Assembly (NCBI RefSeq): GCF_041146345.1 | Contig: NW_027191409.1 | Span: 1,674,001-1,738,000 of the forward strand | DNA from: Neodothiora populina | Taxonomy: Eukaryota | Direction of reading: 5' to 3' | DNA: 64,000 bases | In this document: in pieces, positions 57,726 to 64,000 of the stretch | Layout: every line of letters starts with the position of its first letter | Position numbering within the stretch: the stretch's first letter is position 1 | The notes under the pieces: model-generated | The model's database searches: none | What the model was told of the DNA's origin: nothing | Seen by the model: the letters and a program-made list of their open reading frames with translations, nothing else | Program-made: the position numbers and the translations under genes

Positions 57726-60171
57726 CTAGAAGGCTGTGTCGTCTACCTCTGCGTCTGGTTCTGCATCCGCATTCGCGTCCGCTTCGAGAAATTCAGAGAA
57801 AGTAATCTCTGGAAGGGAGTCATCGACAAGACCATCATTGTTGACTTGGTCCGCGACTTGATACGAAGACTCTGTGAACTGAGATGGTTCAGTGATCTGA
57901 CGAGGTCCTGTGAGCTGAAGAGGTCCGGCGGCTTGAGCAAGACCGGCGAGCTGAGGAGGTGCGACCATTTGAGCCGGAGCAGCGACTTGAGGAGCTCCAG
58001 CGAGTTGAAACGGTGCGGCGGCGGGATCATGAGGAGGGATTGGACCATACATCTGTACATTGTTGTACATGCCAGGGTCAGAAAGCTGGTAGGTGTCGAA
58101 ATAGGTTCCAGCTGCGTGATTTCCGATTGCTGGGTTACCGCCGTTGTAAGAGGGAGTGGTGAACTGAGATGGTTCGGCAAAATCACAAGTTTGGAAGGGT
58201 CCATTTGCAGGTACGCCGAGATCATAAGTAGATCCAAAATTCTGCACTGGGGCTATGTAGCTCTGAATTGGAGCAGGGCCAAATGCTTGATTACCGTTGT
58301 AGTAGTTGACTCCGGGTATCATCTGCGAAGTGTTGGCCAGACCATAAGGTTGGACAAGTCCTTGTCCTCCTCCACTTTGATAATGGGTGGGTCCAGAGAC
58401 AAGAGGTACATCGTTTTGAACCTCTGGAGCAATATTCTCAGTTCCAGGAACATCTGCGTCGGAGAATTGAGATGGATCAAACAAAATCTCGTCGGTGATA
58501 GTCTCGTCTATTTCTGGAAGCTGCATAGGAGCACCATCTCCTTCTGGCATGACGAAATCCGCGCTAGCGAGATGCGAAGGATCAATGACCTCTTCACTCG
58601 CGACGTTTGCCTCCCCAGCGAGCAGCAATGGGCCGATGTCACCCTCAGGGGCGACAACGTTGATGCTAGGCAGCTGGAGTGGCTCGAGACTCTCAGGGAA
58701 CGGGCCTCCAGGCAGAGCGGTCCGGGGCATAATGACATTCCCGTTGTACTGTGGATTGTGGAGAGCAGTGTATTGTCCAGGGGCACGGGGATCATTGGTC
58801 TGCTGGTTGTATGAGGTCAACGAAATGTCGGCGGGCCTAAAGGTCTGTTGGTTGTACGCGTTTGACAACATGTCAGCGGTGCCGGAGGTCTGCTGATTGT
58901 ACAGGTTTGACGACACGTCAGCGAGCCCAACGGTCTGGCCGCTAGCACCCTGGTTGACAGAGAGGATGGCAGGATCGATGGTGACTACATTGCGAAAACC
59001 ATGGTCGTGGGCGTTACTGGCTGGTAAGTGGGATGGGAACGGGTTGTAGCTTGACGGAGCCATGTATGAGTTGTAGCCATGTTGCTCGATGTCAACACTG
59101 TTGTTGTGTGGCTGAATGTAGTTTACTTGAGGAACGTCTGAACCAAGGGACTGGCCCACAGCAGGATTTGGCAGAAGCAGAGACTGCTGTACCTGGTTTG
59201 ATCTACCCAAGACAATTGGCTCATTGCTGCCAGGAAAAGTGTTGTCACGAAGCAGGGGTTCTCCTCCATAGGAATTCCACTGAGGAGCCTGAGCCGAGTT
59301 CTGAGTGGGGGCGACTGGTGGATAAGTAGATGCCAGAGGCTGGATTGCCGTCGTCTGGCCTATCTGTCCCTCGGTCTGGAGGTCTGCTGTGGAGTTCTGC
59401 AGTAATTGTGCAATAAGACGCTCACGTACAGCGGCGCATGAGCGAAGAACTGAAAACATGGCGGAATTCGGATCCAGAGGTTCAGTCAAGACCTGGAAAC
59501 CTGGCTGCATAGAAGTCTGACCCGCATCTTGATCAGCACCCTCTATCCTAGTAGAGTCACGCCCACTAAGGTCGAAATTTATCACGAAGGGGTTTTCGTG
59601 CTTAGCCCGCTTGCGATTGCTTCTGCAATAAAGGCATTGAAAGTCAGCAACAGTTACGCTTACGCATTGAATAGAGCGAGCAAACGTACGAACGCCTCTT
59701 TGCAGGCTCAACTTTAGAAAATTCAGTCGCACTACCAGTCGCGTCTTGCTCGGCGATCTCGGCGGCCTCGGCGGCAGCAGCCCTTTGGTCGCGTATAGTA
59801 GCCGCCAACTCTAGGAGTTTGTCCTGCTCGGCGGCCTCAGCGCTTCCAGCAGCAGCAGTGCTTTGGTTACCTATAGCAGCCGCTGACTCTAGGACTTTGT
59901 CCTGCTCGGCGATCTCGGCGGCCTTGACGGCAGCAGCCCTTTGGTCGCGTATAGTAGCCGCCAACTCTAGGAGTTCTTCCTGCTCAGTGCTGTGTTTTGT
60001 TGTTACATGGTCAAAGAGGTTCTTGCGCCTGGTATAGATGCGCTTAGGACATTTAGGACAAATCCAGACCTTGCCTCTATGAGTTGCCATGTGGTCTAAA
60101 AAATGGCTCTGCCGAGTGTAGTTTTTACCACAGTTATCGCAAACAAATGGCCCCGACGACATGGTGTTCAT
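57726..60171 (-). CDS. C2H2 zinc-finger transcription factor (2 fingers, long Q/P/N-rich activation-like region); intron near 59689-59623
   Basis: FVCDNCGKNYTRQSHFLDHMATH and WICPKCPKRIYTRRKNLFDHVTTKH fingers; splice KRRS|SNRKRAK gives an NLS-like stretch; acidic C-terminus. Confidence 0.8.
59743..59985. repeat. 78-bp coding tandem repeat, about 3.1 copies (26-aa helical unit)
   Basis: Units start at 59743, 59821, 59899 and (partial) 59977. Units 1 and 3 share an identical block of about 47 nt. Confidence 0.92.
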
Positions 60172-62122
60172 ACGCGATTTTAGTTGCGATAGCGATGAAG
60201 ATGACGATTCGATTACGATGGCGATATTAGCAGCAAAATGAGGAAAAAAAGTGTTTGTGAAGTAGTAAGTGAAGGTGAGGTTAGACCCTCAATCATAGGT
60301 TATGGTGTTTGTGTTTTGTTTACGCATCGCTCGCCGAGCATCGCTCATATAGATATGAGATGTTTTTGTCAGTGCCCTGAGCCATGTGGTAAGGGTCCGC
60401 AGACCTAGATGACTCTGTCCTCAAGGACTTTCGGCCTCTGTCTCTAGTCTTTGCAGTGTCCGCATCCCGCTTTGTCCTGTTATCCATAGGGACTTACTTA
60501 TCCAGCTTACATAGAGTCTACTTAGCCTCGTAGAATCATTCGTAAAGGAGAAGAGTGACTATTTCTTAAATGCTCCAATGTGCTTTTGATAGAGCGAAGT
60601 ACCCTCTGTATGGAACACAGAATCAATAAGGGATGTTGACGCTTTCCTTACCAGGTCAAGGAGGAAACTTGTGATGTAGCCTCTCGAACTGAAGAGCTGT
60701 CTGACTAGATAAGCAATGAGAGATTACCTAGTGATCGTTGGCTGCCTTCATAACACCTTGATGCTGGTAAGATGACATTGTTCACGCCCCGTGGCGGTGT
60801 TGCTATGCACAACCAAGATGTATACAACCTTTGAGCATGCACGAAGATCATGCAATGCTTTCCCATGTAATCTGCGGCTTCTCGTCGCTATAACATCTGT
60901 TTTGATGGGGCAAAGAAGGACATAGGTATGTCTGTAGCAACAGATCGAGCAAGTCGACTTTTGATGTATTGACACGTGCAGACAACAGGCGGGCACGTTG
61001 GCCATATCCTCAGTGCTCATAGACTCGACTGCTCAATCAAGGCATGATTCATGTCCTCAGACTGCTGAAACAATTCGATGTCTGTTATCCGAAGGAAGAA
61101 GGGGCGAAATTATTGGATACGGCTCGGTGGCCTCAAGAGACCTTAAAGTCGTTGTAATCCTAGGCTCCAACATCAAAGACAGCCGTGCTACAAACATAGA
61201 TTCAGTATGAAAGATATCAGCCAAGTCACAGTACACGAGGGTCATCTTGTATGATGGCATAGAAGTGAATATAGCACACTCTAATGCTATCAACTCATCG
61301 AGGGCGTAAATACTACGCGCATACAGAGAGGATCGCGACACGCGTTCCATAGCAGTTGTGTCGGAATCTCAGAAACGTGTCGGCTATGTGTACAGATTTG
61401 ATCTATTTCACCACGCGACAGACAAACTTATCTGCACAGGTCGCACATTTGTAAGGTTTTTGGAGAATGAATTTTGGTACTGGAAAAACTGTGCCAGTCC
61501 ACAGTGGCGTTGCAAGTCGATCGGATTGTATGACTAAGCATATCCGCGAATTCATCACCCGCCTTCGATTGGGCACCACACCCATACAGTCTTGCGACGG
61601 CTATCATACAGGGACCAAATGCCGTTTATGGATTCAACGATGTGATCAAGTAGATCAACAAAAGAATTGAGGTCACGCATGTGGTATGCGCAATGATAGA
61701 GGGTACATATAGATCCAGTAGCGCCGACGGTGGCCAACCAATCATCTCTACAGCTCCACGAATCAGATGCCCGAAGTCGATCTGTTGTGCAACACATGTT
61801 CTTGTCAAAAATTTGCGCCACGTTCTGCAGTACAAATCAGGCTACATCTCCACATCAGCGATGGGACTACGAATAAGGTCTTCAGGATGGACGAGGTAGT
61901 ATCCGTTCGTCCAGGGGTCCAGTCGCAGAGGGCTGCACCTGTGAAGATCAACATTAAAGCAGCCGATCTGGCTATAGACCAGGCTAGGATCTAGTAAGAG
62001 CTGGGTCATAGTATAGCCACTGACGATTTTAGCAAGCGGACAAGGAAGCTCAAAAGTAAGATTGATCTGTATGCCAAAAACTGTTCTCCAGGGGAATAAA
62101 ACCATTGATTCTTCCAAGCCAC

Positions 62123-62876
62123 TCATCTCCGACCTCTGAACATTTCGGCGTTTAGATCAGTGTTCTGATAGCCCATAAAGGTGACTGCATCTCCGTTCAC
62201 TGTGACTCCACTGACGTCCAATTGGAAATCAAGATTCCGCAATTCCCCGGCGGCATTCGTGATCCCCATTATCGCATACGCGGACTCGCTGATTTTGACG
62301 TCGTCAATCTTCACACCTGTGCGCTTGGATTGAGACTGCTTGTAAACCGACTCGCAAGCGGACTTGTGATGCCGCCAGGCCCTCTGCTCATCACATACGA
62401 AGTCGATTATGTTCCGAGTACCTCTCCTATCTGCACGACTTCTGACATTTGCTTTCAGTTTTTGAAGTTGTTCCTCAACCTTTTGTGACTCATCAATTTT
62501 CACTTCCGCATTTTTGATCAGCTGCAGCATACTCTTCTCTTGTTCTTGCAAGACAGTACTGACATCGTCAGTAACTCGGCCCTGATGGGGCTGGACATGG
62601 CTGTAGAAGGCATTAGCTGAGTATCAAATCGTAAAATATGGGCGAAGGAACGAACAGAAGAGACGTGTTGTTAGCGATGTCTAGCGTCAGTTTGCAAGCA
62701 CCCAGCTGACCATTGGAAGAGCCGATCGCGTGCGTCTCGAAGGCCATGTGAATGCGGTCTTCGAGACTTCTCTGCGAAGCCCTAGAGACCTTAGACCAGC
62801 TTTCCAAGAAAGACTGCAAGGCCTCACAACAATCACCGCAGGCGTTGACCGTTTCTGCTAGTCTCATATCTGACAT
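62123..62876 (-). pseudogene. 5'-truncated HeLo-like/SesA-type ('fungal N-terminal domain of STAND') protein with a C-terminal two-repeat HET-s-like amyloid motif; intron 62655-62601
   Basis: LAETVNACGDCC..L..W...SLEDR..LGACKLTLDIA helical segment, a clean 55-nt intron (GTTCGT..GCTAAT..TACAG), a coiled segment, then VKIDDVKISESAYAIMG / LDVSGVTVNGDAVTFMG pseudo-repeats. The usual hydrophobic N-terminal helix is absent. Confidence 0.65.
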
Positions 62877-63345
62877 GGCAGTATCCGGAGGTTGGTATGG
62901 TGGGGATCCGTTTTCATATGTAGGGGAATCTGATGATGATGCAGCAGCGATAGTCAAATTGCTGTTGGACACTAGGAAGGTCAATATGGACTCGAAAGAT
63001 GACTCCGGCCGGACACCGCTATCGTTCGCAGCAGGACTTTGGTATGGCGCAGGCGCAGCAAGAGTCAAAATCCTGTTAGACACTAATCAGGTCGACATTG
63101 ATTCCAAGGATGCGTCAGGCCGGACACCGTTATGGTACGCAATAGAGGAAGGATTAATCTTGTCAACAGATTCGACAGTCGTTCGTATGCTACTCCACAC
63201 CGGCAAAGTCGACGTGGAGGCTATGGATCACATAGGCCAAACACCACTGGGGAATGCAGAGCAGCAGGGCATGGTGGAGATTGTCAAGTTGATGCACGGG
63301 TATATGGAAGCATCAGGTCATTCTTGCGAGATCTGTCCAGAGTGA
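62875..63345 (+). pseudogene. Ankyrin-repeat fragment (3-4 repeats) of the type found at the C-terminus of fungal NACHT-ANK NLRs
   Basis: IVKLLLDTRKVNMDSKDDSGRTPLSFAA, VKILLDTNQVDIDSKDASGRTPLWYA, VVRMLLHTGKVDVEAMDHIGQTPL. Begins mid-repeat; no NACHT domain upstream. Confidence 0.8.
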
Positions 63346-64000
63346 AGGCCAGTCCTTCCCAAGATAGTCATAGGATACGTCAGATTGAATTCCAGTAAGC
63401 AAGCATTTGCCATGGTCAAGTCCAGTAATCAAGCATTAGACGTCTTAGACTTGTTGTGCGTGTGAGGCATGCCCTCTCGCAGGACGCCGGAACACTCGAC
63501 GAGGTTGACAAGCTAAAATACAAGTGGGTTTCGGGGCATGCTATGGAGCCATTCTTGGTATTACCTTGAAGAGTTGGGGGCACTCAATGGTTGAATTGAG
63601 CGACAGCTCAGAAAGGACAAATTGAGAGATTTGCTAGTCAATAGCAGAGGCGGAGAGTTGTCAATAGTGTACCTTAAGGTAAGGTACAGGTAGGTATTAA
63701 CAACAACAAGTTGTGAAACGTCAAAGTGAGAAGCTTGGCGGTGGGATGGCGAGGCTCGAGCTCCAGTTTGAGATTGGCTGGAGATGTTCTTGTGGTGGAA
63801 GAGACGAAATGTGAGATTAAAGTTGGTGGAATTGCGGAGTAGAAGGCGCAGGTGCATTCATTTCCAGCAGTTTGAGAGTTTGGGGCAACTGGCGGGAAGG
63901 AGGTGGAGCGTGCAGCGCAACGTCAGAGACGGGAATTTGTGGCAGCAGCAAGTAACAATAGCAGTGACGGCAGAGATTCACTTGGTTGATAACAATAATT

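What the first reader, a model, noticed from the sequence alone, without database searches (positions are those of the whole stretch)
62126..62314. Two-repeat HET-s-like (HRAM-type) prion-forming motif variant
Seen: R1 VKIDDVKISESAYAIMG (62314-62264) and R2 LDVSGVTVNGDAVTFMG (62221-62171) are each 17 residues ending in hydrophobic-G. A 14-aa loop separates them, and a short tail with a Phe (DLNAEMF) follows. By eye they align without gaps to the HET-s repeats NSAKDIRTEERARVQLG and NSVETVVGKGESRVLIG, keeping the inward hydrophobic pattern, the small residue at position 12 and the terminal Gly. The first Asn-ladder position is replaced by V/L. Inference: a beta-solenoid functional amyloid of a divergent HRAM subtype.
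Basis: partly seen in the sequence, partly recalled or inferred. Interest (0 to 1): 0.75.

Follow-up and report, generated by a model that had tools for sequence, protein, structure and literature searches.

The report
Amyloid motif on truncated fungal effector
This is a real member of a known family of fungal amyloid signalling motifs, but it sits on a cell-death gene that has lost its front end and apparently its partner receptor, so it is most likely the leftover of a broken immune switch.

Summary
Both repeats are present as described. They end a two-exon, minus-strand gene for a HeLo-like (PigL_N, PF17111) protein (NCBI AAFC00_003901, Neodothiora populina). The motif aligns in register with a published HRAM member from Aureobasidium, is kept in five unnamed homologues, and its low-confidence model ranks HELLF and HET-s fibrils first and second of 48,161 chains (Z only 3.7 and 2.9). 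So it is an HRAM, nearest the Q3 (HRAM2-like) group, with V/L at position 3; hydrophobic position 3 already occurs in the 2015 data set. The gene lacks about 72 N-terminal codons, including the hydrophobic helix that forms the pore in HET-S. It abuts, back to back, an opposite-strand ankyrin remnant with no NACHT domain in front. An intact divergent effector/NLR pair lies on contig C18. The simplest reading is a deletion through a head-to-head effector-NLR pair. One same-sample run holds a spliced contig and a poly(A)-like end, so the remnant seems transcribed. Amyloid formation was not tested. A het-s-like non-toxic prion allele is not excluded but is unlikely (about 8%).

The parts
62258..62320 (-). 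HRAM repeat r1 (21-residue numbering; V3, I5, V8, I10, A16, M18, G19, I20)
62228..62257 (-). 10-residue loop; its first residue is an Asn (position 22) that is also present after r2
62165..62227 (-). HRAM repeat r2 (L3, V5, V8, V10, T16, M18, G19, Y20)
62126..62164 (-). C-terminal tail with Asn22, a conserved Asp and a Phe
62123..62600 (-). Exon 2: helical end of the HeLo-like domain plus the two-repeat prion-forming domain, with stop codon
   Evidence: HMM positions 148-299 of 310, 28 bits
62601..62655 (-). 55-nt GT-AG intron, phase 2, at the same protein position as the exon junction of the C18 paralogue
   Evidence: sequence; skipped in one contig of run X2; NCBI model P0006
62656..62876 (-). 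Remnant of exon 1: HeLo-like/PigL_N domain from about position 70-73 onward; first usable in-frame ATGs at 62876 and 62867
62877..62907 (.). Inferred junction between the minus-strand effector remnant and the plus-strand ankyrin remnant
   Evidence: HeLo-like homology ends near 62876; ankyrin DNA self-similarity begins at 62908
62899..63345 (+). Open ankyrin-repeat remnant (3-4 repeats to a stop codon), no NACHT or start region in front; inferred 3' end of the partner NLR
   Evidence: Pfam Ank_2 E 4e-20; NLR origin is inferred, not tested
61823..62122 (-). 3' untranslated region, ending at a probable poly(A) site at 61823
   Evidence: 12 loose T before 61823 in one X2 contig, depth 2

Best explanation
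The motif is a genuine HRAM prion-forming domain inherited from a HeLo-like cell-death effector. In the ancestral locus (inferred) the effector and a NACHT-ankyrin NLR lay head to head. Activated NLR would fold its single N-terminal r0 repeat into a beta-solenoid and template r1/r2, releasing the N-terminal pore-forming helix (mechanism taken from HET-S/NWD2 and HELLF, not shown here). In this genome one deletion removed the effector's first ~72 codons, the shared promoter and the NLR's r0, NACHT and first repeats, leaving the two 3' ends back to back. The remnant still seems transcribed and spliced and probably could still aggregate, but should not kill and has no evident cognate trigger: a relic of a disabled immune module. 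Shown: motif, truncation, ankyrin remnant, intact sister pair. Inferred: deletion, NLR origin of the ankyrin piece, amyloid fold, loss of toxicity.
For: Carrier is PigL_N, profile positions 70-201 of 209 only. An HMM of 11 full-length homologues matches exon 1 from position 73 of 310 and nothing further upstream in the three minus frames of 62001-63700. Best N-terminal 19-residue hydropathy is 0.63 against 1.56-2.04 in 11 of 11 full-length homologues. The ankyrin remnant begins within about 30 nt of where HeLo-like homology stops. Contig C18 holds an intact divergent pair: 299-aa effector and r0-NACHT-WD40 NLR, start codons about 0.48 kb apart. Homologue P0019 ends in the same sequence as row Aurpu_var_mel1_81883 of Daskalov 2015 file S2. 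An HMM of 15 Aureobasidium-type domains scores our domain 10.6 bits, reached by 0 of 500 shuffles. Positions 3, 5, 8, 10 and 20 are hydrophobic in 12 of 12 repeats of 6 subfamily members and G19 is kept in 11 of 12; the domain is as conserved as the helical part (32 of 61 against 33 of 70 identical to P0003). VIA-align ranks HELLF 6EKA (Z 3.7, rmsd 5.8, 50 aligned) and HET-s 2KJ3 (Z 2.9, rmsd 6.0, 56 aligned) first and second of 48,161 chains. The Atlas model of residues 160-229 matches a HET-s_218-289 cluster at TM 0.63. X1 record 5 and X2 record 8 bridge the junction (one sample, possibly the source).
Against: No intact allele or full-length orthologue of this subfamily was found: all close homologues are exon-2 fragments without genomic context, so the ancestral layout is inferred from a paralogue. 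The ankyrin piece was not traced to an NLR by a homologue search. The structural model is poor (mean pLDDT 57), and the Z scores are far below what the tool calls meaningful and are tied with unrelated rows. One subfamily member (P0007) has Asp for G19 in r1 and scored only 6.7 bits (3 of 500 shuffles). The profile score of 10.6 bits is only a little above the best shuffle (8.0). The genome search for NLRs scores only the best candidates, so an unlinked r0 can have been missed. No independent sample bridges the junction: the X3 contig starts at 62883, under 31 letters left of it.
Confidence: 0.72

Rival explanations
1. het-s-like exaptation: the truncated protein is a non-toxic prion-capable allele kept by selection, which kills or incompatibilises strains carrying an intact allele (or soaks up seeds from the C18 NLR as a decoy).
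For: Same end state as Podospora het-s: dead pore domain, dead NLR, intact prion domain (PMC3321046, PMC4344463, passages). The frame is open for 229 codons, splice sites are intact, and one run holds a spliced contig and a poly(A)-like end. The C18 r0 is the best non-self hit of the subfamily repeat profile among the fetched loci (8.8 bits, E 0.53).
Against: The ankyrin remnant is equally free of stops, which fits a recent deletion as well as selection. No intact allele is known. Read depth in X2 is 2-3, single contigs. The C18 r0 resembles its own neighbour more (BLOSUM 32 and 40) than our repeats (23 and 23), and HRAM subfamilies HELLF and HET-s do not cross-seed (bioRxiv 2020.07.06.188508, passages).
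Confidence: 0.08
2. The effector is still complete or functional (unseen upstream exon, or a naturally short form), and the ankyrin piece is an unrelated insertion.
For: NCBI annotates two isoforms, 229 and 189 aa. X2 cover reaches 63090 and ends in 9 unplaced letters.
Against: Neither isoform has a hydrophobic N-terminal helix (0.63, 0.72). No PigL_N or full-length-homologue match for the missing part lies upstream or elsewhere among scored candidates. Upstream in-frame ATGs close within 31 codons.
Confidence: 0.12
3. The repeats are a chance beta-rich tail or a decayed motif that no longer forms a solenoid.
For: Only 4 of 21 identities between repeats; no Pfam HET-s_218-289 hit; no polar residue at 3 and no R/K at 15 in 12 of 12 repeats; one charge pair only.
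Against: Position, spacing and pattern are conserved in 6 subfamily members and 15 Aureobasidium-type relatives. Only 38 of 155 published HRAM pairs match that Pfam family (PMC4518210).
Confidence: 0.06

Closest known systems
HRAM with Q at position 3 (HRAM2-like; Aureobasidium melanogenum KEQ66045 / file S2 row Aurpu_var_mel1_81883, and N. populina AAFC00_007133 on C18)
   Same: HeLo-like carrier, same exon junction as the C18 paralogue, ungapped alignment of each repeat, Asn after both repeats, Asp-x-Asn-like tail; r1 has 8 of 21 identities to the C18 paralogue's r1. The HRAM2 label is my inference from the paper's text; file S2 has no group column.
   Different: V/L instead of Q at position 3, loop 9-11 instead of 7, r2 more diverged (3 of 21 identities to the paralogue's r2), carrier truncated, no adjacent r0.
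HET-S/HET-s and NWD2 (Podospora anserina; HRAM1)
   Same: Two 21-residue pseudo-repeats, hydrophobic 5/8/10/16/18, G19; divergent effector/NLR layout; natural alleles that have lost both pore activity and the NLR.
   Different: No Asn at 3 or 20, no basic residue at 15, HeLo-like rather than HeLo domain; loss here is by an inferred deletion, not a point change plus transposon; no prion or incompatibility shown.
HELLF (P. anserina, HRAM5; PDB 6EKA)
   Same: HeLo-like domain plus two-repeat domain; top structural neighbour of the model (Z 3.7, 20% identity).
   Different: Lacks the QxFG and QG hallmarks of HRAM5; HELLF is full length and shown to kill.

Membership tests
HRAM superfamily | Two ~21-residue repeats at the C-terminus, loop of 6-18 residues | tested here: met
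   loop 10; 9-11 in 6 of 6 subfamily members
HRAM superfamily | Hydrophobic residues at 5, 8, 10, 16, 18 and Gly at 19 | tested here: met
   5, 8, 10: 12 of 12; 18: 11 of 12; 16: 8 of 12 (Thr in four r2, including ours); G19: 11 of 12
HRAM superfamily | Carried by a HeLo, HeLo-like or SesA domain protein under 310 aa | tested here: met
   PF17111 29.1 bits, cut-off 27.2, but only profile positions 70-201
HRAM superfamily | Preference for R/K at position 15 | tested here: not met
   0 of 12 repeats. The paper calls it a preference, and the published Aureobasidium member lacks it too
HRAM superfamily | Inter-repeat charge complementarity at outward positions | tested here: inconclusive
   all 9 charged pairs in 6 members are opposite in sign, but ours has only one (K4/D4); no control run
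HRAM superfamily | Adjacent NLR with a matching N-terminal r0 (98 of 155 published cases) | tested here: not met
   only an ankyrin remnant is adjacent; among 10 NPHP3_N matches (7 upstream regions read) the only r0 seen is the C18 one
HRAM superfamily | Match to the published generalised HRAM profile | not testable with these tools
   the published profile and motifs could not be loaded into the script box; a profile built from fetched relatives was used instead
HRAM superfamily | Beta-solenoid fold, fibrils and prion propagation | tested here: inconclusive
   low-confidence model with repeated strand pattern at offset 31; weak top hits HELLF and HET-s; no experiment
HRAM1 / HRAM2 / HRAM3 / HRAM5 subfamilies | Position 3 N (HRAM1), Q (HRAM2), H (HRAM3); QxFG and QG (HRAM5) | tested here: not met
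   V/I/L/M at 3 in 12 of 12 repeats; so nearest to, but not filed under, HRAM2
Active HeLo-like death effector | N-terminal hydrophobic (pore-forming) helix | tested here: not met
   first ~72 positions absent; hydropathy 0.63 against 1.56-2.04

The most novel reading that the evidence does not exclude
A second natural het-s-like system: one deletion disarmed a HeLo-like effector and removed its NLR while leaving a transcribed gene with an intact HRAM variant (hydrophobic 3/20 pair, Asn at 22 in both repeats). The product would propagate as a harmless prion in this tree-canker fungus and trigger death in strains that keep the intact allele.
Probability: 0.08. Interest if true: 0.75.

Novelty: new member of a known kind. 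Interest (0 to 1): 0.32.

Why it matters
If only the best explanation holds, it adds a small, rare HRAM offshoot (six sequences) and a clear example of how an amyloid-signalling pair dies in one step; useful, not surprising. It also offers a natural test of whether a beta-solenoid tolerates hydrophobic residues at both sealing positions 3 and 20. If the novel case held, it would show that the route from NLR module to prion, so far known from Podospora het-s, can be repeated, and by deletion.

Tried and rejected
First homologue search for longer proteins: 0 hits among 463 candidates. Metagenome scans: none of 97 candidate stretches with alignment A4; one locus with P0003, L025, which is a bacterial DegP-like protease and a false positive. 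PDB sequence search: nothing under E 0.37. Foldseek against PDB: no match at E <= 0.001; HET-s 2LBU only at rank 41, E 8.3. AlphaFold on the 229-aa protein left the motif region unmodelled (pLDDT under 35). Three-copy complex prediction: no answer, score 0.07; no evidence either way. Atlas feature search gave PigL_N clusters at 0.78-0.86, leads only. Sequencing-run search: no RNA holder listed. The 9 loose letters at 63090 in X2 were not found in 20 kb of contig C7 around the locus. No second copy of 62600-63700 and no displaced 5' piece; the weak C14 match L031 is noise. The exact ankyrin ORFs are not in the protein collection. No sign of RIP by TpA/ApT (0.51-0.53 in both remnants). X3 was rejected as independent proof of the junction (under 31 letters on one side). 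Three look-ups of earlier findings returned nothing. Paper searches listed no paper on this gene or organism's amyloid motifs; the library lacks most subscription journals.

Full report
Observation. The two repeats, the loop and the tail are present at the stated coordinates. They close a 158-codon exon on the minus strand, 62599-62126. In the 21-residue numbering of Daskalov et al. 2015 (PMC4518210; I read parts 1-3 of 5 of the text and all five parts of file S2), r1 is 62320-62258 and r2 is 62227-62165, with a 10-residue loop. The best repeat pair in the last 70 residues lies on this diagonal and was reached by 8 of 2000 shuffles; the double HRAM pattern arose in 4 of 50,000 shuffles, with the caveat that I wrote the pattern knowing the sequence.

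The gene. A 55-nt GT-AG intron (62655-62601) joins exon 2 to an upstream frame that matches PigL_N (HeLo-like, PF17111). The collection holds two isoforms of 229 and 189 aa, named AAFC00_003901 of Neodothiora populina, the fungus named as the cause of aspen running canker (PMC8032200, one passage). Run X2, labelled 'DNA?' and from the same sample as the possible source run X1, has one contig that skips exactly this intron and one that ends in 12 loose T at 61823; X1 shows neither. I infer that X2 is RNA and that the gene is spliced and polyadenylated. Depth is 2-3 and each feature rests on one contig, so this is weak.

Relatives. Close homologues are rare: 3 besides itself in 1.84 billion representatives and 6 besides itself with a profile search, all exon-2 fragments at 43-53% identity. 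Six sequences including ours cover both repeats (P0005 lacks the first two positions of r1). Positions 3, 5, 8, 10 and 20 are hydrophobic in 12 of 12 repeats, G19 is kept in 11 of 12, and the motif is as conserved as the helical region. A more distant group comprises the C18 paralogue AAFC00_007133 and Aureobasidium melanogenum proteins of 299-328 aa. One of them, P0019, ends in the same sequence as row Aurpu_var_mel1_81883 of the published HRAM set. A profile of 15 such domains, which excludes our subfamily, scores ours 10.6 bits against a best of 8.0 in 500 shuffles; the other five score 6.7-26.8. This ties the motif to a published HRAM.

What differs. Position 3 is V/L, not Q; position 15 is never basic; an Asn follows both repeats (position 22) in our subfamily and after r1 and r2 of the Aureobasidium type. 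The paper predicts contact between positions 3 and 20, and both are hydrophobic here, so a hydrophobic seal and a shifted Asn ladder are plausible (inference). It is not unprecedented: at least 4 rows of file S2 (one Botrytis-type GenBank row CCD5181.., two Hypoxylon, one Gymnopus) have hydrophobic position 3 in both repeats, read by eye. The motif fits no single described subfamily signature and lies nearest the Q3 group.

Fold. AlphaFold with 18 sequences gave a poor model (pLDDT 57) whose strands repeat at an offset of 31. VIA-align placed HELLF (Z 3.7, rmsd 5.8, 50 aligned) and HET-s (Z 2.9, rmsd 6.0, 56 aligned) first and second of 48,161 chains; these scores are low and the second is tied with unrelated rows. 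The Atlas model of the same region matches PigL_N-protein tails and a HET-s_218-289 cluster at TM 0.62-0.65. This is consistent with a beta-solenoid and does not prove one.

The locus is broken. Against 11 full-length homologues the protein starts at position 73 of 310, and Pfam agrees (70 of 209). The hydrophobic N-terminal helix present in 11 of 11 homologues is gone; in HET-S this helix makes the pore (PMC5485727, passages). Within about 30 nt of that point, on the plus strand, an ankyrin-repeat frame begins and runs to a stop at 63345, with no room for a NACHT domain. Contig C18 shows the intact form of such a module: effector and r0-NACHT-WD40 NLR head to head, about 0.48 kb apart. het-S and nwd2 are arranged likewise (PMC3321046, PMC4344463, passages). 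Deleting the middle of such a pair leaves exactly two 3' ends back to back. Two contigs of one sample bridge the junction; the contig of an independent study (X3) matches 62883-63152 without a difference but is too short on the left to count. No missing piece or second copy was found among scored candidates elsewhere, and no r0 other than the C18 one in the 7 upstream regions read for 10 NACHT-type matches. These searches give lower bounds. That the ankyrin piece came from an NLR is inferred from context and from my recall of fungal NACHT-ankyrin repeats; I did not test it.

Mechanism and odds. Motif is an HRAM: about 0.9. Locus is a deletion relic: about 0.8. Joint best explanation: 0.72. The remnant should be unable to kill and lacks an evident trigger. 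This is also the state of Podospora het-s, which is why a harmless-prion reading is not excluded. Against it, the ankyrin remnant is as free of stops as the effector remnant, which a recent deletion explains without selection, and no intact allele is known.

Literature seen: PMC4518210 (text parts 1-3, file S2 whole); PMC9815663, bioRxiv 2020.07.06.188508, PMC5485727, PMC3321046, PMC4344463, PMC12261475, PMC8032200 (passages only). Supplements of the 2022 paper (generalised HRAM profile, motif tables) were not opened and may already cover this variant. Verdict: real, a new member of a known family with minor sequence novelty, on a disabled locus; interest 0.32.

Noticed in passing
G000:C18:27160-32693 (L002, L005, L006): Intact divergent pair: HeLo-like effector with a Q3-type two-repeat HRAM (AAFC00_007133, 299 aa) and an r0-NACHT-WD40 NLR with near-identical WD repeats; a better candidate for a working amyloid-signalling module than the locus reported.
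   Followed up: partly
G000:C7:1745100-1748100 (L004, L018), about 8-10 kb beyond the window end: Broken PNP_UDP-NACHT NLR on the minus strand and further PNP-like fragments; this end of contig C7 holds several decayed immune genes.
   Followed up: no
G000:C16:347500-349100 (L010): HeLo-like-NACHT NLR with a stop inside the NACHT match.
   Followed up: no
G000:C18:541500-543200 (L013): HeLo-like N-terminus followed by a frame ending in ankyrin-like repeats.
   Followed up: no
window 59644-60171 (-): C2H2 zinc-finger protein with a two-copy ~40-residue Ala/Glu-rich internal repeat; probably joined to the 57726-59732 frame.
   Followed up: no
P0007 (unnamed Logan protein): Subfamily member with Asp in place of the otherwise invariant G19 of r1; possibly another decaying allele.
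   Followed up: no
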